Assembly: GCF_056746865.1 (NCBI RefSeq)
Contig: NZ_CM163382.1
Strand: one strand, 5' to 3'
Length of the DNA stretch: 64,000 nucleotides
Both the position numbers and the translations under genes were made by a program. The first letter of the stretch is position 1. Each line of letters begins with the position of its first letter. Shown here piece by piece: positions 7,217 through 63,531 of the stretch. Under the pieces are notes generated by a model that was given only the letters and a program-made list of their open reading frames with translations, had not been told where the DNA came from and did not search any database.

Positions 7217-8379
7217 AATTTTTTGTCGCTGATATTCCAGACAGGAAAACAATATGCCTTTAGCTGCCAGATTAAACGACAAAGGTACCGGCACAGGGAA
7301 AGATCACGTAACGCTGCTTTTTTGTACTAAATAATTCGCATTTTATGTTTAAAATTTGAGATATTCCTCATTACCTGAGGCTGTTTTTTATTACTTATAC
7401 ATGATCAAATACTCCTTACATAATTAAGGGGAACAAAATGGAACTTAAAAATTGATGGAACATATTTCTGTTATTCCCGATTACAGACAAGCCTGGAAAG
7501 TGGAACATAAATTGTCGGATATTCTACTGTTGACTATTTGTGCCGTTATTTCGGGTGCAGAAGGTTGGGAAGATATAGAGGATTTTGGGGAAACACATCT
7601 CGATTTTTTAAAACAATACGGTGATTTTGAAAATGGTATTCCTGTTCACGATACCATCGCCAGAGTTGTATCCTGTATCAGTCCTGCAAAATTTCACGAG
7701 TGCTTTATTAACTGGATGCGAGATTGCCATACTTCAGATGATAAAGACGTCATCGCAATTGATGGAAAAACGCTCCGGCACTCTTATGACAAGAGTCGCC
7801 GCAGGGGAGCGATTCATGTCATTAGTGCGTTCTCAACAATGCACAGCCTGGTCATCGGACAGATCAAGACGGATGAGAAAACCAATGAGATTACAGCTAT
7901 CCCAGAACTTCTTAACATGCTGGATATTAAAGGAAAAATCATCACAACTGATGCGATGGGTTGCCAGAAAGATATTGCAGAGAAGATACAAAAACAGGGC
8001 GGTGATTATTTATTCGCTGTAAAAGGAAATCAGGGGCGGCTTAATAAAGCCTTTGAGGAAAAATTCCCACTGAAAGAATTAAATAATCCAGAGCATGACA
8101 GTTACGCAATGAGTGAAAAGAGTCACGGCAGAGAAGAAATCCGTCTTCATATTGTTTGCGATGTCCCTGATGAACTTATTGATTTCACGTTTGAATGGAA
8201 AGGACTGAAGAAATTATGCGTGGCAGTCTCCTTTCGGTCCATAATAGCAGAACAAAAGAAAGAGCCAGAAATGACGGTCAGATATTATATCAGTTCTGCT
8301 GATTTAACCGCAGAGAAGTTCGCCACAGCAATCCGAAACCACTGGCACGTGGAGAATAAGCTGCACTGGCGTCTGGACG

Positions 8380-10270
8380 GTGTGCCGCAGGAACACAAGA
8401 TAGCTGCATAAGGATACGCAGTTAGCTTTTGTATAAGCTCATAAAGAGATGGTGGAAGGCCCACCGGGATCGGCTGTCGGAAGCAGATTCCAAACCACTT
8501 CATGCTGCTGTGGTAAAGAGCCATGGTAGTGAGCGATGAAGTAAAGCGTGAGTGAAAACTCAGCAGGTAAGATACTCATGAGACGAGTGAACCCGAACCC
8601 ATGTTGACGCGTCGTAAACCAGAGACTGACATCAAAACCGAAGGGGCGTCCAGCCTTCGGGATAAGTCTGCGAGTGAATTCCGAATGCTGCGCAGACGGT
8701 GTCCGGCGTAAAGTGGGCGTGACGGAGTATCAGGCTCTTCCTGGGAACTGCGGGAACCTGTCGTTGTGATGATAAGGGAGAAATGCAAGTCACTGAATTG
8801 GCGAGCATGAAAGTACCGATGCACAGCACAGGGACGGAGCCGTTCGTAGTAGTGATGAAGCTTCTGTAATGGAGGTGGAGCGAAGGGGCGGCATCAGACA
8901 GTCTTTGGACAGTGTTCAACTGAACATGTTCAGGAGGAGACAATGACAAAGACAAAAGCGTTTAACATTGATAAGTCACTGGTGGTCAGCGCGTACAGGC
9001 GAGTGAAGACCAGTGCAGGCGCGGCGGGAATTGATAAGCAATCGCTGGCGGACTTTGATAAACGGTTAGTTGATAATCTGTACAAAATCTGGAACCGACT
9101 TTCTTCAGGAAGTTATTTCCCACCGGCAGTGAAAGCGGTGGCAATTCCGAAGAAATTGGGTGGAGAGAGAATTCTGGGTATCCCGACAGTCAGCGATCGT
9201 ATCGCGCAGACGGTGGTAAAACTGGCCTTTGAGCCACAGGTTGAGCCACATTTTCTGGCAGACTCTTACGGCTACAGACCGAATAAATCGGCACTGGATG
9301 CTATAGGGGTAACGCGTAAGCGTTGCTGGTATTACGACTGGGTACTGGAATTTGACATCAAAGGGCTGTTCGATAACATCCCGCACGAACTGATAATGAA
9401 AGCCGTGGACAAACACAATCCGGCCCGGTGGGTAAAATTGTATATACAGCGGTGGCTGACAGCGCCGATGGTGATGTCAGACGGAGAAGTCAGAGCACGA
9501 ACAATGGGAACGCCGCAGGGAGGTGTCATAAGTCCGTTGCTGGCAAACCTGTTCATGCATTATGTGTTTGATAAATGGCTGGCAAAATATTATCCGAAAG
9601 TGCCGTGGTATCGATATGCTGATGATGGCATTTTGCATTGTCACAGCGAAGCAGAAGCGACTGAAATGCGAGAAGTATTACGCAAAAGATTTAGCGAATG
9701 CGGACTGGAAATGCATCCGGAGAAAACGCGAGTTATCTACTGCAAAGATGGAAGCCGGAAGGGTGATTATGAACATACCATGTTCGACTTTCTGGGGTAC
9801 ACATTCAGGCGACGCGTAGTAAAGAACGTTAAGCGAAACAGTCTGTTTGTAAGTTTTACCCCCGCAGCGAGCAAATCAGCGCTAAAGGCAATGCGTCGGG
9901 AAATCAAAGCGACAGGGATAAGGAAAAGAGTGGATTTAAGCATTGAGCAGATAGCGAAATGGATAAATCCAAAACTGAATGGCTGGATAAATTATTACGG
10001 GCGATATACCTGTTCGGAATTATACAGCGTGTTCAGATATATCAATAAAGCACTGGTGAGGTGGGGGCGTAAGAAATATAAAATGCTCAGCCGATACAAG
10101 ACAAGAGCCTCAAAATTTCTGGAAGAAATGGCGAAGCGAAGTCCACAGTTGTTTGCCCACTGGCGTCTGAAGATGAGAGGCGGACTTGTTTGATGGGAGC
10201 GGTATGAGCCGAGAGGTTCACGTACCGTTCTGCGAGAGGCTGCGGGGGAGGTTCCTGCGGCCTACTCACC
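8380..10270 (+). mobile_element. Group II intron (bacterial, with RT/maturase ORF)
   Basis: Boundaries from aligning interrupted copy 1 to uninterrupted copy 2: shared …cgtctggacg | intron starts GTGTGCCG … ends …cctactcacc | tggtaatgaatg resumes. Domain V-like GAGCCG…CGTACCGTTC lies just after the RT stop. Confidence 0.7.
8943..10193 (+). CDS. Group II intron-encoded reverse transcriptase/maturase
   Basis: 416-aa ORF with RT motifs (…RYADDG… YADD box) and a maturase X-domain motif (NGWINYYG). Confidence 0.85.
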
Positions 10271-10493
10271 TGGTAATGAATGAAGACGACTGCAAAATAA
10301 GAAGAGGAAATGCAGCAGAATTATTTTCAGGGATACGGCACATCGCTATTAATATTTTGACGAATGATAAGGTATTCAAGGCAGGGTTAAGACGTAAGAT
10401 GCGAAAAGCAGCCATGGACAGAAACTATCTGGCGTCAGTCCTTGCGGGGTGCGGGCTTTCGTAATCTTTCCCTGGATGTGAAAAGCAGCTGCG

Positions 10494-11779
10494 GACAGGG
10501 AAAGATCATCAGAAGTACACTTTTTGTACTAAACAATTCGCATTTTATGTTTAAAAATTGAGATATTCCTCATTACCTGAAGCTGTTTTTTATTGCTTAT
10601 ACATGATCAAATACTCCTTACATAATTAAGGAGAACAAAATGGAACTTAAAAAATTGATGGAGCATATTTCTATTATCCCCGATTACAGACAAGCCTGGA
10701 AAGTGGAACATAAATTATCGGATATTCTACTGTTGACTATTTGTGCCGTTATTTCTGGTGCAGAAGGTTGGGAAGATATAGAGGATTTTGGGGAAACACA
10801 TCTCGATTTTTTGAAGCAATATGGTGATTTTGATAATGGTATTCCTGTTCACGATACCATTGCCAGAGTTGTATCCTGTATCAGTCCTGCAAAATTTCAC
10901 GAGTGCTTTATTAACTGGATGCGTGACTGCCATTCTTCAGATGATAAAGACGTCATTGCAATTGATGGAAAAACGCTCCGACACTCTTATGACAAGAGTC
11001 GCCGCAGGGGAGCGATTCATGTCATTAGTGCGTTCTCAACAATGCACAGCCTGGTCATCGGACAGATCAGGACGGATGAGAAATCTAATGAGATTACAGC
11101 TATCCCTGAACTTATTAACATGCTGGATATTAAAGGAAAAATCATCACAACTGATGCGATGGGTTGCCAGAAAGATATTGCAGAGAAGATACAAAAACAG
11201 GGAGGTGATTATTTATTCGCTGTAAAAGGAAACCAGGGGCGGCTAAATAAAGCCTTCGAGGAAAAATTTCTGCTGAAAGAATTAAATAATCCAGAGCATG
11301 ACAGTTACGCAATTAGTGAAAAGAGTCACGGCAGAGAAGAAATCCGTCTTCACATTGTTTGCGATGTCCCTGATGAACTTATTGATTTCACGTTTGAATG
11401 GAAAGGTCTGAAGAAATTATGCGTGGCAGTCTCCTTTCGGTCAATAATAGCAGAACAAAAGAAAGAGCCCGAAATGACGGTCAGATATTATATCAGTTCT
11501 GCTGATTTAACCGCAGAGAAGTTCGCCACAGCAATCCGAAACCACTGGCACGTGGAGAATAAGCTGCACTGGCGTCTGGACGTGGTAATGAATGAAGACG
11601 ACTGCAAAATAAGAAGAGGAAACGCAGCAGAATTATTTTCAGGGATACGGCACATTGCTATTAATATTTTGACGAATGATAAGGTATTCAAGGCAGGGTT
11701 AAGACGTAAGATGCGAAAAGCAGCCATGGACAGAAACTACCTGGCGTCAGTCCTTGCGGGGAGCGGGCTTTCGTAATCT
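10494..11779 (+). mobile_element. H-repeat (ISAs1-family) element copy 2, intact
   Basis: Left IR acagggaaagatca and right IR tcttgccctg; direct orientation, about 20 bp after copy 1. Confidence 0.75.
10640..11776 (+). CDS. H-repeat-associated ISAs1-family transposase
   Basis: 378-aa [35 protein letters not shown]… uninterrupted. Confidence 0.85.
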
Positions 11780-11895
11780 TGCCCTGGTACAGTAAACAAA
11801 CGAAAGTTGTTATTTCAATGGTCAGGGCAAGAGCATGAAGTGTTTACTACACACTATGCTCTTGTCCTGGAGTCAGGTCTTGTTTGGAGGGATAA

Positions 11896-12399
11896 ATGGT
11901 AGATATTGTCGAGGCCGATAAAACGGATATTTATTTCATTCAGGAGAGTGTTTATGGCAAAATCGGGTTGCCAGCTTTTGGTAATACAATAGGACCATCC
12001 GCACAGCAAGTTGTTAAAAAGGTATTCGCTGTCGTTAAAGAACGAGATAAGACACATGCAAAACAGAGATTATTGTTGGAATATAATGGTAACAAACTCT
12101 GGATGAATGCTATTGATGGCAGTGAAGCTATCCTACCAACAGAATTTTCTAAGCGATACGAACTTTCATTATTTAATACTACTAATTTTGGAGAAGATCC
12201 TTTTCCTGATGTTAATTTATATAATAATATGAAATCAAGTTTTTTTGTAAGGTTTGGTGGAACATCCCATCCCGAGGCTTGGGCTATTTATAATGCAAGT
12301 ACGAAAGAGGTTAAATATATAGAAACTGCAAGAGAAATTGATAAAATATTCAGTGATTTTAACTTGAGTGGTACATTGCCAATTCACATTGGTCGATGA
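11896..12399 (+). CDS. Hypothetical protein, AT-rich cargo
   Basis: 167-aa ORF in a low-GC segment between H-repeat elements; no recognisable motif. Confidence 0.35.
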   Translation: MVDIVEADKTDIYFIQESVYGKIGLPAFGNTIGPSAQQVVKKVFAVVKERDKTHAKQRLLLEYNGNKLWMNAIDGSEAILPTEFSKRYELSLFNTTNFGEDPFPDVNLYNNMKSSFFVRFGGTSHPEAWAIYNASTKEVKYIETAREIDKIFSDFNLSGTLPIHIGR

Positions 12400-12465
12400 T
12401 TTTTTAAATTGTGTGATTAAATAATTGAACATTAATGATGATTTATAGCATTATTATTCTATAAC

Positions 12466-12978
12466 ATGAATAAACGGATTGAATGTGTTATGTTAAAAAT
12501 AAGTTTATACGTAATAATATTGTTATTTTCCTTTCAGATTAGTGCAGCCATTACTAGCAAGGAAAGTGAGGTTGTTTCACCATTATTAATGGATGTTAAT
12601 TCTTCACTAACAATGGAAAATATTTCTGAATTATCCACATCATCGGAACCATCGCAACAGGGGGTATTTCCTGTAATATGTACTCGACTTCATCCTGGCT
12701 CCGTAATGAAACGCCAGTTATTAACCGGCTGGGGGCCTGTTTTTATAATTGGTGATGATCCTTTTTCTCTGCGCTGGATGAGTGAACATCTGGAGATCCT
12801 TAAATCGCTAAATGCCCTTGGTTTGGTTGTTAATGTTGAATCAGTAGAACGAATGGAGGTATTACAGCAGCGGGCTGATGGGTTATTGTTATTGCCAGTT
12901 ATCTGCGATAATTTCGTGCAAACTCTGCAATTAAATGCTTATCCGGTATTAATCACAGAGATGGAAATATCACAATGA
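12466..12978 (+). CDS. Hypothetical secreted/membrane protein
   Basis: 170-aa ORF with a hydrophobic N-terminal segment (ISLYVIILLFSFQISAAITS); low GC. Confidence 0.35.
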   Translation: MNKRIECVMLKISLYVIILLFSFQISAAITSKESEVVSPLLMDVNSSLTMENISELSTSSEPSQQGVFPVICTRLHPGSVMKRQLLTGWGPVFIIGDDPFSLRWMSEHLEILKSLNALGLVVNVESVERMEVLQQRADGLLLLPVICDNFVQTLQLNAYPVLITEMEISQ

Positions 12979-12994
12979 TTAATAACATAATTAC

Positions 12995-13215
12995 TGCAAA
13001 TAATATCGTAATTTTGAAAATGGTAATTCTGTTCACGGCACCATAATTAGAGTTATGTCTTGTATCCGTTCAGTATAATTTCACGAATGCTTTATTAACT
13101 GGATGCGAGATTGCCATTCATCAAATGATAAAGACGTCATCGCAATTGATGGAAAAGCGCTTCCACACTCCTATGATAAAAGTGGTCGCAGGGGAGCGGG
13201 CTTTCGTAGTCTTAG
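12995..13215 (+). pseudogene. Internally deleted H-repeat transposase remnant (position equivalent to K-12 yafF)
   Basis: Matches the ENGIPVH…[10 protein letters not shown]…SRRRGA segment, then jumps to the element 3' end (…ggagcgggctttcgtagtct…); junction at a short ggggagcg microhomology. Confidence 0.6.
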
Positions 13216-18157: not shown

Positions 18158-18925
18158 ATGTGCGAATTGCTCGGGATGAGCGCCAACGTCCCTACCGATA
18201 TCTGCTTTAGTTTCACCGGGCTTGTACAGCGTGGTGGTGGAACCGGGCCACATAAAGATGGCTGGGGCATCACCTTTTACGAAGGTAAAGGCTGTCGCAC
18301 ATTTAAAGATCCACAACCCAGCTTTAATTCCCCCATCGCCAAACTTGTCCAGGACTACCCGATAAAATCCTGTTCGGTTGTGGCTCATATTCGGCAGGCC
18401 AATCGGGGCGAGGTGGCGCTGGAAAATACTCACCCGTTTACCCGCGAGTTATGGGGACGCAACTGGACTTATGCCCATAACGGGCAACTGACGGGCTACA
18501 AATCACTGGAAACCGGCAACTTCCGCCCGGTCGGTGAAACCGATAGCGAAAAAGCCTTTTGCTGGCTCCTGCATAAATTAACGCAGCGTTACCCGCGCAC
18601 ACCGGGCAACATGGCGGCAGTGTTTAAATATATCGCCTCACTGGCGGATGAACTGCGGCAGAAGGGCGTTTTCAACATGCTGCTTTCAGACGGGCGCTAT
18701 GTAATGGCGTATTGCTCGACTAATTTACACTGGATCACCCGCCGCGCGCCGTTTGGCGTGGCAACGTTGCTGGATCAGGATGTGGAAATCGACTTCAGCT
18801 CGCAGACCACACCTAATGATGTGGTCACGGTGATTGCGACACAGCCGCTGACGGGCAATGAAACCTGGCAAAAGATTATGCCAGGCGAATGGCGCTTATT
18901 TTGCCTCGGGGAGCGTGTAGTTTGA
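18158..18925 (+). CDS. yafJ: Class II glutamine amidotransferase-like protein YafJ
   Basis: Start [19 protein letters not shown]… (N-terminal Cys nucleophile); 255 aa. Confidence 0.85.
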
Positions 18926-19636
18926 TGCCAGCTGTGGTTGCACAACTTCGTGGCTTAACGGCTTGCTGACCACGTAACGGCCATTGACCACAGAAACGGT
19001 CGGTGGCTTACGGGTTTGCTCAAAGTAGTCGTAGCCCGGTTTCAGTTGCTCCCAGAAGTCCTTAAAGTTGGAATACTTATGGCGCTTCATATTAGCGTCG
19101 GTCATACGGAACGGGTAAATACTCACTTGCACGCTCGGCTGACCAAACACCAGCGCACCAGTAACGAACTGGAAGATCTCATCAATACCCTGATTGGTCA
19201 TCGCGTAGCAGCCGATGGAAACACAATCGCCGTGGATCATCAGGTATTTCCCTTCATAACCATGCGCACGGTCATAGGCATTGGGGAATCCAATATTAAT
19301 CGCTTTGTAGTAACGGCTGTCTGGTTTTAACTGATTACGCTGGACGCTATAAAACCCTTCCGGGCTTTTGAAATCGCCCTGACGCTGTTTTGGTCCTAAG
19401 CCGCCGGAATATTTACAGATTTTATAGCTGTCGAGCAGTTGATATTGCTCGCCCATTTTGACGTAGAGATCGAGCGTACGTTCTTCCTTGAAGATCTGGA
19501 TGTAGACAGGGGATCCCATCAACTGCTGCTTATACTCTTTGCTCACTGGCGTGGTCGAGCTACTGCTGCCCAGCAAACCGGCAAACGAAACGCACGGGAT
19601 CAACAACATCGCAAGAATTAATGCGATTTTACGCAT
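18896..19636 (-). CDS. yafK: L,D-transpeptidase-fold periplasmic protein YafK
   Basis: 246-aa ORF with signal peptide [19 protein letters not shown] and YkuD-like content. Confidence 0.85.
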
Positions 19637-19927
19637 ACTGCTTATTCCTTGATAAAACGGTTACACACGCCAGGACGGCAAAATGGATCCCAAATCGGAA
19701 TAGTCTGGATTTGGAAGGCTCACATTATCACCAAAAGAGTTTTACGCAAGCCTGTCGGCGCAGGGTTTACAAATTTAGCACAGGGGCAGTTTTCATTAGT
19801 CCGAAAAGCGCATGTATCATTTATTTCCTAAGATTATGAAACCTCAATAGTAATATGCAAATAAGCAATTAATAATCCCGTTTACTCCTCCGGTCTTTTA
19901 AAATTCTCCCCTTCATTCAGCCGGTTT

Positions 19928-20686
19928 ATGTCCTTCATGTCTTCGTTCTTTCACGGCAGATTTCTGCATCCAGGCGTGTTTTCGTTATGCGTTTTGCTCC
20001 CTTTACTCGCCAGCGCCACCACATCACATATCTCTTTCAGCTACGCCGCCCGCCAGCGGATGCAAAACCGTGCGCGTTTATTAAAACAGTACCAAACCCA
20101 TCTGAAAAAACAGGCCAGCTATATTGTGGAAGGCAATGCCGAAAGCAGAAAGGCGCTGCGCCAGCACAACCGCGAACAGATAAAACAGCATCCAGAATGG
20201 TTTCCTGCGCCGCTCAAGGCGAGTGACAGACGCTGGCAGGCGCTGGCGGAGAACAACCATTTCTTAAGCAGCGACCATCTGCACAACATCACCGAAGTGG
20301 CGATTCACCGCCTGGAGCAGCAGCTTGGTAAGCCTTACGTCTGGGGCGGCACGCGGCCCGATCAAGGCTTCGACTGTAGCGGGTTGGTTTTTTATGCCTA
20401 CAACAAGATCCTCGAGGCGAAGCTCCCGCGCACGGCCAATGAGATGTATCACTACCATCGGGCAACGATTGTGGCGAATAACGACCTGCGCCGGGGAGAT
20501 TTGCTGTTTTTCCATATTCACAGCCGTGAGATTGCCGATCATATGGGCGTGTATCTGGGAGACGGTCAGTTTATCGAGTCGCCGCGCACCGGGGAAACCA
20601 TTCGGGTAAGTCGGTTAGCTGAACCTTTCTGGCAGGATCATTTTTTAGGCGCGCGCAGGATTTTGACGGAAGAGACGATTTTGTAG
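19928..20686 (+). CDS. yafL: NlpC/P60-family peptidoglycan endopeptidase YafL
   Basis: 252-aa ORF with signal peptide and NlpC/P60 signature (…GFDCSGLVFYAY…H…). Confidence 0.8.
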   Translation: MSFMSSFFHGRFLHPGVFSLCVLLPLLASATTSHISFSYAARQRMQNRARLLKQYQTHLKKQASYIVEGNAESRKALRQHNREQIKQHPEWFPAPLKASDRRWQALAENNHFLSSDHLHNITEVAIHRLEQQLGKPYVWGGTRPDQGFDCSGLVFYAYNKILEAKLPRTANEMYHYHRATIVANNDLRRGDLLFFHIHSREIADHMGVYLGDGQFIESPRTGETIRVSRLAEPFWQDHFLGARRILTEETIL

Positions 20687-20768
20687 GACGGATAAGGCGT
20701 TCACGCCGCATCCGGCAATAGTGCACCGATGCCTGATGCGACGCTGCCGCGTCTTATCATGCCTACGA
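20683..20768. repeat. REP element, overlaps the yafL stop codon
   Basis: gtaggacggataaggcgttcacgccgcatccggca… unit. Confidence 0.65.
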
Positions 20769-20862
20769 GTCTGCGAATTTTTTGCGAGCTGCTTTCCCGA
20801 TATAACACAACTTCATTGTCGACTTTTCCTTTTCTTCTTATCGTTGAGAAAAAGGAGTCGCC

Positions 20863-21360
20863 ATGTCTGAATATCGTCGTTATTACATCAAGGGGGGAAC
20901 ATGGTTTTTCACGGTAAATTTACGGAATCGTCGAAGCCAACTTTTGACCACCCAGTACCAGACACTCCGTAACGCCATTATTAAAGTTAAGCAGGCCAGA
21001 CCTTTTGAAATTAACGCCTGGGTAGTTTTGCCAGAGCATATGCACTGTATCTGGACATTACCCGAAAGTGATGATGATTTTTCCTCTCGCTGGCGGGAGA
21101 TTAAAAAGCAGTTCACCCATGCTTGCGGATTGAAAAATATCTGGCAACCGCGTTTTTGGGAGCATGCCATTCGCAATACAAAAGATTATCGCCATCATGT
21201 TGATTATATTTATATAAATCCAGTGAAACATGGCTGGGTAAAGCAGGTGAGTGATTGGCCATTCTCAACGTTCCATCGCGATGTAGCGCGAGGGTTATAT
21301 CCCATTGATTGGGCGGGAGACATAACGGATTTTAGTGCCGGGGAGCGTATTATTTTATAA
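20863..21360 (+). CDS. rayT: REP-associated tyrosine transposase RayT (YafM)
   Basis: 165-aa ORF MSEYRRYYIKGGTWFFTVNLRNRR…; IS200/IS605-like HuH fold; flanked by REP elements. Confidence 0.85.
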   Translation: MSEYRRYYIKGGTWFFTVNLRNRRSQLLTTQYQTLRNAIIKVKQARPFEINAWVVLPEHMHCIWTLPESDDDFSSRWREIKKQFTHACGLKNIWQPRFWEHAIRNTKDYRHHVDYIYINPVKHGWVKQVSDWPFSTFHRDVARGLYPIDWAGDITDFSAGERIIL

Positions 21361-21510: not shown

Positions 21511-23050
<1,540 letters not shown>

Positions 23051-52385: not shown

Positions 52386-52730
52386 ATGATGTGGGACGTC
52401 GAGACAACGGAGACTTTCGACAACTGGTTTGATGCCCAGACTGTTGCGCTGAAAGAAGATTTACTTGCTGCAATGCTGATTCTTGCTGAGTATGGCCCAC
52501 AGTTGGGCAGACCCTTTGCGGATACGGTTAATGATTCACAGTTTTCAAATATGAAAGAATTACGCGTCCAACATCAGGGAAACCCGGTACGTGCTTTTTT
52601 TGCTTTCGATCCTGCGCGCCGTGGCATTGTATTATGTGCGGGTGATAAAACGGGGTTAAATGAGAAAAAGTTTTATCGCGATATGATCAAGCTCGCTGAT
52701 TCTGAATACCGTAAGCATCTGAAAAAGTAA
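52386..52730 (+). CDS. Type II toxin, RelE/ParE superfamily (HigB-like)
   Basis: 114-aa ORF MMWDVETTETFDNWFDAQ…GNPVRAFFAFDPARRGIVLCAGDKTG…, the toxin class usually encoded upstream of an HTH antitoxin. Confidence 0.7.
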   Translation: MMWDVETTETFDNWFDAQTVALKEDLLAAMLILAEYGPQLGRPFADTVNDSQFSNMKELRVQHQGNPVRAFFAFDPARRGIVLCAGDKTGLNEKKFYRDMIKLADSEYRKHLKK

Positions 52731-52739
52731 GGAACGATA

Positions 52740-53039
52740 ATGGCTACTCTAAAAGAACTGATGGCAAAGCAAAGCCCTGAAAGCCAGGTGCGTATTGCGG
52801 CAAAAGTTGAGGAAATGCGCCAGACCATCGCCTTGCATCAGCTGAGAGAAGAACTCAATATTTCGCAAACGGAAATGGCGGCAGCGATGGGCATTAAGCA
52901 ACCGACTCTTGCAAAAATGGAGCAGGCAGATAACGATCCTCGGTTGTCTACGCTAAAACGCTATGTTGCGGCTTTAGGTGGGGAATTGAGTATCGACGTT
53001 AAACTGCCGAATGGTAAGAGAATTGCATTTCAGATTTAA
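52740..53039 (+). CDS. HTH (XRE-family) antitoxin, HigA-like
   Basis: 99-aa ORF 10 bp after the toxin; HTH segment LNISQTEMAAAMGIKQPTLAKME. Confidence 0.7.
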   Translation: MATLKELMAKQSPESQVRIAAKVEEMRQTIALHQLREELNISQTEMAAAMGIKQPTLAKMEQADNDPRLSTLKRYVAALGGELSIDVKLPNGKRIAFQI

Positions 53040-62836: not shown

Positions 62837-63130
62837 ATGCATCGAATTCTTGCGGAAAAATCGGTCAATATCACTGAGTTACGTAAAAACCCAGCTAAAT
62901 ACTTTATTGATCAACCAGTTGCGGTTCTTTCTAATAATCGCCCCGCAGGATATCTCTTAAGTGCCAGCGCATTCGAAGCGTTAATGGACATGCTTGCTGA
63001 ACAAGAGGAGAAAAAGCCTATAAAGGCGCGCTTCCGTCCAAGTGCTGCAAGATTAGAGGAAATTACACGCCGAGCTGAAAAATATCTTAATGATATGACG
63101 GATGATGATTTCAATGACTTTAAGGAATAA
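62837..63130 (+). CDS. yafN: YafN antitoxin (Phd/YefM-like)
   Basis: 97-aa ORF downstream of dinB; size and position as K-12 YafN. Confidence 0.85.
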   Translation: MHRILAEKSVNITELRKNPAKYFIDQPVAVLSNNRPAGYLLSASAFEALMDMLAEQEEKKPIKARFRPSAARLEEITRRAEKYLNDMTDDDFNDFKE

Positions 63131-63132
63131 GG

Positions 63133-63531
63133 ATGCGGGTATTCAAAACAAAACTCATTCGCCTGCAACTTACAGCAGAGGAACTTGAAGCGTTAACGGC
63201 GGATTTTATTTCCTATAAGCGTGACGGTGTTTTGCCAGATATATTTGGTCGCGATGCACTCTACGACGACTCGTTTACCTGGCCATTAATCAAATTTGAG
63301 CGAGTTGCTCATATTCATCTGGCAAATTAGAATAATCCATTTCCGCCACAGTTGCGCCAATTCAGCAGAACGAATGACGAAGCGCATTTGGTATATTGTC
63401 AGGGTGCGTTTGATGAGCAAGCATGGTTGCTCATTGCCATTCTGAAACCTGAACCTCATAAACTGGCTCGAGATAACAACCAAATGCATAAAATTGGGAA
63501 AATGGCAGAAGCGTTTCGCATGCGTTTTTGA
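63133..63531 (+). pseudogene. yafO: yafO toxin gene interrupted by an in-frame amber codon
   Basis: 65 codons, then TAG at 63328..63330, then 66 further sense codons in the same frame to TGA at 63529..63531; total 132 codons, the size of K-12 YafO. Confidence 0.75.

What the first reader, a model, noticed from the sequence alone, without database searches (positions are those of the whole stretch)
19637..19927. dinJ–yafQ toxin–antitoxin module absent between yafK and yafL
In K-12 the order is yafK – yafQ – dinJ – yafL. Here yafK (ending at 19636) and yafL (starting at 19928) are separated by only 291 bp of non-coding sequence, so the dinJ–yafQ pair is missing. Together with the yafO amber codon, this strain has lost or disabled two of the TA toxins in this neighbourhood while gaining a different TA pair inside Flag-2.
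Basis: established knowledge. Interest (0 to 1): 0.3.

Follow-up and report, generated by a model that had tools for sequence, protein, structure and literature searches.

The report
Native yafK–yafL gap, never held dinJ–yafQ
The dinJ–yafQ toxin–antitoxin pair really is absent between yafK and yafL, but this is the original Escherichia arrangement, shared by 38% of complete E. coli genomes, so K-12 gained the pair rather than this strain losing it; the pattern is ordinary and already published.

Summary
yafK/dpaA (18896–19636, −) and yafL (19928–20686, +) are 291 bp apart. No DinJ, YafQ or K-12 cassette DNA is detectable anywhere in the 64-kb window.

The interpretation "lost" is not supported. 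The difference from K-12 is a replacement, not an indel. Window 19777–20008 (232 bp: yafL upstream region plus the first 24–27 yafL codons) stands where K-12 has 838 unrelated bp (yafQ, dinJ, operator, and another yafL upstream region and leader).

- **Frequency:** 2084 of 5426 complete E. coli genomes carry the 232-bp allele and 3340 carry the cassette. Together that is every genome that has the locus.
- **Outgroups:** the 232-bp segment is orthologous to the same interval in E. albertii and Escherichia sp. E1V33. Citrobacter and Phytobacter also have yafK next to yafL with no toxin–antitoxin pair.
- **Origin of the cassette:** it is low in GC, and its nearest relatives outside E. coli sit on prophages and plasmids.
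- **Literature:** published work already scores yafQ–dinJ as an acquisition by the E/B1/A lineage and phylogroup F.

The window therefore holds the native, unoccupied site. The side claims check out: yafO has an amber codon at codon 66, and a rare HigB-like/HTH pair lies inside Flag-2. Already known; low interest.

The parts
18896..19636 (-). yafK / dpaA (246 aa, YkuD-fold peptidoglycan–Lpp amidase), left flank
   Evidence: ORF list. Pfam YkuD, E 2.9e-08. Annotated dpaA, WP_001225679.1, in the near-identical strain 118UI.
19637..19776 (.). 140 bp of intergenic DNA next to yafK, shared by both alleles
   Evidence: 140/140 identical to K-12. 93–100% identical in E. albertii, E1V33 and other pair-free E. 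coli.
19777..20008 (+). 232-bp allele-specific segment of the pair-free allele: native yafL upstream region (19777–19927) plus the native yafL leader codons (19928 or 19937 to 20008). It replaces 838 bp in K-12.
   Evidence: Breakpoints. No similarity to the K-12 segment: local alignment score 19 versus shuffles 18.4±2.2. Orthologous to E. albertii, E1V33 and B2-like E. coli at 80–83%. Present in 2084 of 5426 genomes.
19928..20686 (+). yafL (C40 / NlpC-P60 peptidase), right flank. The start is 19928 (252 aa) or 19937 (249 aa, PGAP). The first 24–27 codons belong to the allele-specific segment.
   Evidence: ORF. Pfam NLPC_P60, E 3.2e-33. Annotation. The leader MSFMSSFFHGRFLHPGVFSLCVLLPLL|ASATTSH matches the E. 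albertii, E1V33 and Citrobacter leaders, not the K-12 leader MSLPSIPSFVLSGLLLICLPFSSF|ASATTSH.
63133..63531 (+). yafO with an in-frame TAG at codon 66 (63328–63330), downstream of an intact yafN (62837–63130).
   Evidence: Translation and codon. PGAP 'internal stop' pseudogene.
52389..53039 (+). Toxin–antitoxin-like pair inside Flag-2: Gp49/HigB-like RelE-superfamily toxin (52389–52730) plus an HTH_3 protein (52740–53039).
   Evidence: Annotation. Pfam Gp49 1.1e-20 and HTH_3 9.9e-13. Found in 71 of 5426 genomes, all ≥99% identical.

Best explanation
Window 19637–19927 is the native, never-occupied yafK–yafL intergenic region of Escherichia: a 291-bp spacer between two divergently oriented cell-wall enzyme genes, running on into the native yafL leader peptide. 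dinJ–yafQ is absent because this lineage keeps the ancestral allele. The K-12-type allele is the derived one. In it, an 838-bp segment replaced the native 232 bp. That segment comprises a compact toxin–antitoxin module (yafQ, dinJ, and an operator with a LexA-type box) followed by a very divergent yafL upstream region and leader. The replacement is found in phylogroups E, B1, A and F and in one unclassified Escherichia. Shown here: the breakpoints, the absence of remnants, the allele frequencies, orthology of the 232 bp with outgroups, and the mobile-element context of the cassette's relatives. Inferred: that the cassette spread by homologous recombination through the conserved flanks from an unidentified enterobacterial donor. 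Also inferred: that in this allele yafK and yafL are driven by their own divergent promoters within the 291 bp, whereas in K-12 yafK lies downstream of dinJ–yafQ and is thought to be co-transcribed with it.
For: Replacement, not deletion: identity to K-12 breaks at 19776|19777 and resumes at 20008|20009, so 232 bp here stand against 838 bp in K-12 with no detectable similarity between them. Two alleles, never both: 2084 genomes have the 232-bp allele and 3340 have the cassette, out of 5424 that have the locus. A sensitive blastn search with the dinJ–yafQ coding sequence finds it in 3342 genomes, so pair-free genomes hold no second copy at about 65% identity or better. Outgroups: of 80 Enterobacteriaceae yafK loci, 14 have yafL adjacent and only one (Escherichia sp. 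MOD1-EC7003) has dinJ–yafQ. E. albertii, Escherichia sp. E1V33, nine Citrobacter and Phytobacter have none. The window's 232 bp and its leader peptide align with E. albertii, E1V33 and a pair-free E. coli genome (L003), and recognisably with Citrobacter. Age: the pair-free allele spans 81–100% identity among its carriers, against 95–100% for the cassette in all but three records. Foreign signature: dinJ–yafQ is 42.8% GC against 52.3% for the window. The nearest YafQ relatives outside E. coli (≤82% aa) lie in a Salmonella lambdoid prophage and on 3.8-kb RepL plasmids, and there are about 68% nucleotide matches on roughly 42-kb Klebsiella, Citrobacter and Enterobacter plasmids. Literature: yafQ–dinJ is scored as acquired by the EB1A lineage and phylogroup F (PMC6896753). 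YafQ is prevalent in A, B1 and F (PMC10790755). E. coli toxin–antitoxin systems are described as horizontally transferred into intergenic regions, with K-12 yafK likely co-transcribed with dinJ–yafQ (PMC5120126).
Against: One unclassified Escherichia (MOD1-EC7003) carries the cassette at the same site with a DinJ 100% identical to K-12. Its cassette identity (96.9%) is no higher than its left flank (96.4%), so an older origin within Escherichia cannot be excluded. E. fergusonii, E. marmotae, E. ruysiae and E. whittamii were not recovered, and no tree-based ancestral reconstruction was run. The K-12 yafL upstream region keeps motifs shared with Citrobacter and Phytobacter that the native Escherichia allele lacks. 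That fits a foreign donor, but it would also fit an old trans-species polymorphism. No donor was found. The promoter statements rest only on consensus scans and on literature about K-12.
Confidence: 0.85

Rival explanations
1. One reading: a K-12-like ancestor of this strain deleted dinJ–yafQ, leaving a 291-bp scar.
For: The pair is absent and the K-12 order is as recalled. The 140 bp next to yafK are 100% identical to K-12.
Against: The interval and the first 81 nt of yafL contain 232 bp that K-12 does not have, so no deletion of K-12 sequence can produce them. There are no remnants. The same 232 bp are present in E. albertii and E1V33. 38% of complete genomes share the allele.
Confidence: 0.03
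2. Secondary reversion: the cassette entered early in E. coli, and this lineage later regained the pair-free allele by homologous recombination with a pair-free donor. That would be a true loss, by allele replacement rather than deletion.
For: The locus does recombine between lineages. E. coli O145 RM9873-C1 carries a pair-free allele 99% identical to that of Escherichia sp. E1V33. Phylogroup F has the cassette although its relatives lack it. MOD1-EC7003 has the cassette. The window's left flank is identical to K-12 over 140 bp, while yafJ and yafK differ by about 2.2%.
Against: It needs more events than simple retention. The window's pair-free allele is itself distinctive, only 80–83% identical to the other pair-free alleles examined, so no donor is evident. 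Published reconstruction treats absence as the primitive state.
Confidence: 0.1
3. The gap is an assembly or sampling artefact, with dinJ–yafQ collapsed out or located elsewhere in the genome.
For: None found.
Against: The same junction is present in 2084 complete genomes, including strain 118UI, which is identical across this region. A sensitive blastn search finds dinJ–yafQ in only 3342 of 5426 genomes, the complement of the pair-free set.
Confidence: 0.01

Closest known systems
E. coli K-12 yafK–yafQ–dinJ–yafL locus (b0224–b0227)
   Same: Same flanking genes and orientation. The 140 bp next to yafK are identical, and yafL is collinear from K-12 codon 25 (window codon 28) onward.
   Different: K-12 has 838 bp where the window has 232 bp: yafQ, dinJ, a LexA-type box (CTGTATATTTATTCAG) and an unrelated yafL upstream region and leader. 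The K-12 dinJ/yafL spacer also carries a reported SrsR binding peak that has no counterpart here (PMC9181523).
Pair-free yafK–yafL allele of other E. coli (IHE3034, SE15, ATCC 25922, ST131 isolates), E. albertii and Escherichia sp. E1V33
   Same: Same architecture: yafK and yafL divergent, about 300 bp apart, no toxin–antitoxin pair, same type of YafL leader.
   Different: Those alleles have a 302–303-bp gap. The window's lineage lacks 11 bp near 19814–19815 and is only 80–83% identical to them across the 232-bp segment.
[quoted passage not shown] 2015; both as cited in PMC5120126)
   Same: The K-12 cassette fits that description: promoter/operator plus two ORFs, ending 15 bp past the yafQ stop codon, sitting between core genes, with the downstream gene yafK dependent on it. 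The window shows the corresponding empty site.
   Different: Here the occupied allele also swapped the neighbouring yafL upstream region and signal-peptide codons. I did not find this detail in the papers searched.
Plasmid- and prophage-borne DinJ/RelB–YafQ pairs
   Same: Same two-gene family (PF04221 plus PF15738), 74–82% aa identity to E. coli YafQ. About 68% nucleotide identity across cassette positions 35–616.
   Different: None of them is present in the window. They lack the yafL-proximal 222 bp of the K-12 segment.

Membership tests
DinJ–YafQ type II toxin–antitoxin module | RelB/DinJ-family antitoxin ORF (PF04221) | tested here: not met
   tblastn of K-12 DinJ against the whole window gives best E 6.3, outside the interval. 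The gap ORFs have no Pfam hit.
DinJ–YafQ type II toxin–antitoxin module | YafQ toxin ORF (PF15738) | tested here: not met
   tblastn of K-12 YafQ gives best E 1.3, with no hit in 19637–19927.
DinJ–YafQ type II toxin–antitoxin module | Nucleotide remnants of the cassette or its LexA-type operator | tested here: not met
   blastn-short finds only 12-nt chance words elsewhere in the window. There is no CTG-N10-CAG in the gap, whereas K-12 has CTGTATATTTATTCAG upstream of dinJ.
Ancestral unoccupied integration site | The interval is orthologous to the same interval in outgroup species that lack the insert | tested here: met
   It aligns end to end with E. albertii, Escherichia sp. E1V33 and a pair-free E. 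coli genome (L003) (80–83% in the 232 bp, 94–98% in the 140 bp), and more weakly with Citrobacter.
Ancestral unoccupied integration site | It contains sequence that the occupied allele lacks, which excludes simple deletion | tested here: met
   The 232 bp at 19777–20008 have no similarity to the K-12 838 bp: score 19 versus shuffles 18.4±2.2, and 198 of 500 shuffles score as high.
Ancestral unoccupied integration site | The insert has signs of foreign or mobile origin | tested here: met
   GC is 42.8% against 52.3%. Relatives lie in a prophage and on small and roughly 42-kb plasmids. The cassette allele is less diverse than the empty allele.
Ancestral unoccupied integration site | Phylogenetic polarity established on a species tree | tested here: inconclusive
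   13 of 14 outgroup or representative loci with yafL lack the pair, but one Escherichia sp. has it. No tree-based reconstruction was run here. The literature scores it as a gain.
YafK/DpaA (YkuD fold) and YafL (NlpC/P60) flanking genes | Catalytic domains present and ORFs intact | tested here: met
   Pfam YkuD 2.9e-08 and NLPC_P60 3.2e-33. Both are full-length ORFs. The RefSeq annotation of identical sequence agrees.

The most novel reading that the evidence does not exclude
The toxin–antitoxin presence/absence polymorphism is in complete linkage with a swap of the yafL upstream region and signal-peptide codons. The K-12-type yafL 5′ end is a xenolog as distant from the native Escherichia allele as Citrobacter or Phytobacter are. 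The swap also displaces whatever native yafK promoter lay in 19777–19927. If so, phenotypes attributed to dinJ–yafQ presence, or to ΔdinJ-yafQ in K-12, could partly reflect altered expression or export of two peptidoglycan enzymes (DpaA and YafL).
Probability: 0.35. Interest if true: 0.3.

Novelty: already known. Interest (0 to 1): 0.12.

Why it matters
It matters little beyond correct bookkeeping. Absence of dinJ–yafQ is the ancestral state for a large part of E. coli (B2 strains and the pair-free lineages such as this one). It should not be counted as toxin loss when toxin–antitoxin repertoires are compared across strains. The one useful nuance is that the two alleles also differ in the yafL upstream region and leader, and in what lies upstream of yafK. 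So K-12 ΔdinJ-yafQ mutants are not equivalent to naturally pair-free strains, which supports published warnings about polar effects of toxin–antitoxin deletions (PMC5120126).

Tried and rejected
- **Remnant search:** tblastn with DinJ and YafQ, and blastn with word size 7 using the 838-bp K-12 segment, against the whole window. Only chance hits.
- **Residual homology between the two allele-specific segments:** Smith–Waterman with shuffles showed none.
- **Hidden element in the gap:** no Rfam family (one miRNA-model hit at E 0.35, inside yafK). No meaningful direct or inverted repeats and no transposition scar. Promoter and terminator consensus hits were barely above shuffle expectation. Gap ORFs have no Pfam match.
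- **Donor search for the K-12 cassette:** the phage collection had no DNA match. Plasmids gave only K-12 F′ or mislabelled chromosomal pieces, plus about 68% matches limited to the toxin–antitoxin genes. YafQ homologs at 77% and 90% identity (109- and 108-aa forms) turned out to be the same E. coli locus with an extended or error-ridden ORF. Salmonella homologs are on a prophage and on RepL plasmids, with no yafL nearby. No donor was identified.
- **Phylogroup of the window strain:** not determined. Papers mentioning its near-identical relative 118UI give only a hint of similarity to an ST69 isolate.

Full report
**1. What is in the sequence**

The window carries yafJ (18158–18925, +), yafK/dpaA (18896–19636, −), a 291-bp gap (19637–19927), yafL (19928 or 19937 to 20686, +) and rayT (20863–21360, +). 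The whole window differs at only 19 of 64,000 positions from the chromosome of uropathogenic E. coli 118UI. Those differences lie mostly in insertion-sequence copies, and none falls between 18000 and 21000, so the RefSeq annotation can be transferred. Pfam confirms a YkuD domain in YafK and an NlpC/P60 domain in YafL. The two ORFs that fall in the gap (72 and 60 aa) match nothing. K-12 does have the order yafK–yafQ–dinJ–yafL.

**2. No remnants**

- tblastn of K-12 DinJ and YafQ against the whole window gives only noise (best E 1.3–6.3).
- blastn with 7-nt words, using the K-12-specific segment, gives only 12-nt chance words, none in the interval.
- The gap has no LexA-type CTG-N10-CAG box. K-12 has CTGTATATTTATTCAG 17 nt upstream of dinJ.
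- The gap has no Rfam family, no significant repeats and no convincing terminators.

**3. It is a replacement, not an indel**

Aligned with K-12, identity is perfect from inside yafK up to window 19776 (K-12 locus L001 position 1877, 15 bp beyond the yafQ stop codon). It resumes at window 20009 (L001 2716, K-12 yafL codon 25). Between those points the window has 232 bp and K-12 has 838 bp.

The two segments are not detectably similar. The local alignment score is 19, against 18.4±2.2 for shuffles. So the alleles differ in more than dinJ–yafQ: the yafL upstream region and the first 24–27 yafL codons also differ.

- Window leader: MSFMSSFFHGRFLHPGVFSLCVLLPLL|ASATTSH
- K-12 leader: MSLPSIPSFVLSGLLLICLPFSSF|ASATTSH

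A deletion in a K-12-like ancestor cannot generate the window's sequence.

**4. Population frequency**

| Search of 5,426 complete E. coli genomes | Genomes matched | Identity range |
|---|---|---|
| Any part of the locus | 5424 | – |
| 232-bp allele (window type) | 2084 | 81–100% |
| K-12 838-bp segment | 3340 | 95–100% in all but three records |
| dinJ–yafQ coding sequence, sensitive blastn | 3342 | – |

The two allele counts add up to all 5424 genomes that have the locus. The sensitive search adds almost nothing, so pair-free genomes have no second copy at about 65% nucleotide identity or better.

Carriers of the cassette include K-12, HS, BL21-type, SE11, O157:H7, O55:H7, O26, O111 and CE10. 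Pair-free carriers include IHE3034, SE15, ATCC 25922 and ST131 isolates. [quoted passage not shown] YafQ is highly prevalent in A, B1 and F (PMC10790755).

**5. Polarity**

One genome-collection scan with YafK returned 80 Enterobacteriaceae loci. tblastn with YafJ, YafK, YafL, DinJ and YafQ gave these results:

- 14 loci have yafL next to yafK.
- Only one of them, the unclassified Escherichia sp. MOD1-EC7003, has dinJ–yafQ.
- E. albertii, Escherichia sp. E1V33, a pair-free E. coli genome (L003), nine Citrobacter and Phytobacter massiliensis have yafK and yafL adjacent with no pair.
- The other 66 loci have neither yafL nor the pair within 4 kb.

The window's 232 bp align along their full length with E. 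albertii, E1V33 and the pair-free E. coli genome L003 (80–83% identity). The leader peptide is of the same type (…RLL.LGVFSL.LLLPLLAS) and is recognisably related to the Citrobacter leader (MSFVSAPRRFLPGLLSLCVV…). The pair-free allele is therefore the native Escherichia state, and it is also the more diverse allele.

The cassette looks foreign:

- dinJ–yafQ is 42.8% GC against 52.3% for the window.
- YafQ relatives outside E. coli reach at most 82% aa identity.
- Salmonella relatives lie between the Q antiterminator and the lysis genes of a lambdoid prophage, and on 3.8-kb RepL plasmids.
- Roughly 42-kb Klebsiella, Citrobacter and Enterobacter plasmids match only the toxin–antitoxin genes and operator, at about 68% nucleotide identity (cassette positions 35–616).

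**6. What the K-12 allele is (inference)**

The yafL-proximal part of the K-12 segment is not random DNA. A 48-bp stretch 62–109 bp upstream of K-12 yafL matches the equivalent position upstream of C. amalonaticus yafL (81% identity). The K-12 upstream region shares motifs with Citrobacter and Phytobacter that the native Escherichia allele lacks (TTAATT…TAATAAT…ATTAAG, TACACTGC, GACCAG). Its leader keeps the register of the conserved Gly13 and Cys18, reading GLL(L)IC as in Phytobacter.

Overall it is about 50% identical to every other yafL 5′ region, which is saturation. The simplest reading is that a foreign yafK–[dinJ–yafQ]–yafL haplotype entered E. coli by homologous recombination through the conserved flanks. 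No donor was found. An old trans-species polymorphism is not excluded, because MOD1-EC7003 carries the cassette at 96.9% identity, no higher than its left flank at 96.4%.

**7. How the interval most likely works here (inference)**

It is an ordinary divergent intergenic region that supplies separate promoters and 5′ UTRs for yafK (−) and yafL (+). In K-12 the literature regards yafK as lacking its own promoter and as likely co-transcribed with dinJ–yafQ, 155 bp downstream of it (PMC5120126, Table 1). The dinJ/yafL spacer there binds SrsR in gSELEX (PMC9181523). Neither feature can apply here. The consensus scan gives only weak candidates, so the promoter positions remain untested.

**8. Side claims**

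- yafO (63133–63531) has TAG at codon 66 (63328–63330; K-12 has Glu there, from my own knowledge of the K-12 sequence). It follows an intact yafN, and PGAP flags it as a pseudogene.
- Inside Flag-2 there is a Gp49/HigB-like toxin plus an HTH_3 protein (52389–53039). The pair is found in only 71 of 5426 genomes, all ≥99% identical, so "gained" is reasonable for that pair.
- The tally "two toxins lost or disabled" should therefore read "one disabled (yafO), and one never present (yafQ)".

**9. Verdict**

The polymorphism and its direction are already published, and the yafL-leader swap is a minor added detail. Novelty: already known. Interest: 0.12.

Noticed in passing
window 19814–19815: Compared with the other pair-free alleles examined (E. 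albertii, E1V33, L003, IHE3034/SE15/ATCC 25922-type E. coli), the window's lineage lacks 11 bp (…GCGCATG[TATAGCGGATT]TAT…). Its gap is therefore 291 bp rather than 302–303 bp. Its 232-bp segment is only 80–83% identical to the others, which are 86–88% identical among themselves (apart from the near-identical E1V33/O145 pair).
   Followed up: partly
window 20009–21360 (yafL mature part, yafL–rayT spacer, rayT): K-12 and the window are unusually divergent to the right of the breakpoint: yafL 93.8%, the spacer 89.7% and rayT 93.0% identical, against about 97.8% in yafJ and yafK. This suggests an old or imported haplotype block extending toward Flag-2.
   Followed up: no
L093 3119–3746 (E. coli O145 RM9873-C1): This strain has a pair-free yafK–yafL allele 99% identical to that of Escherichia sp. 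E1V33, and it carries a hicAB pair in place of rayT between yafL and the lfhA remnant. Together with dinJ–yafQ, yafNO and the Flag-2 HigB-like pair, this neighbourhood looks like a recurrent landing zone for toxin–antitoxin cassettes.
   Followed up: partly
window 63133–63531 (yafO); yafN 62837–63130: yafO carries an amber codon (TAG, codon 66) while yafN is intact, leaving an orphan antitoxin downstream of dinB. Its frequency among E. coli was not measured.
   Followed up: partly
window 52389–53039: A Gp49/HigB-like toxin plus an HTH_3 (HigA-like) gene pair lies inside the Flag-2 cluster, between the gene after flgL and the regulator upstream of lafA. It is present in only 71 of 5426 complete genomes, all ≥99% identical.
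   Followed up: partly
window 21519–22732: An ISEc31 (IS3-family, programmed frameshift) element lies between rayT and the intact Flag-2 flhA (lfhA) gene.
   Followed up: no
window 7455–13198: Downstream of type VI secretion genes (hcp, a truncated vgrG, DUF4123) there is a cluster of ISAs1-family fragments. One is interrupted by a group II intron reverse transcriptase (ltrA, 8943–10193), and there is an intact ISEc1. Most of the 19 mismatches to strain 118UI fall here.
   Followed up: no
L092 1847–2290 (E. coli BS-01): This is a rearranged variant of the window-type pair-free allele: several small deletions in the upstream region and a different stretch in the yafL leader (251-aa YafL). It sits in a small 4.49-Mb genome with a K-12-like Flag-2 deletion.
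   Followed up: no
L085 3001–3330 and hits H71, H188, H196: Among cassette carriers, some have a 109-aa YafQ (extended C-terminus) and some have IS1 inserted in or next to yafQ (strains 167 and CFS3246). So the toxin is also being disabled within the occupied allele.
   Followed up: no
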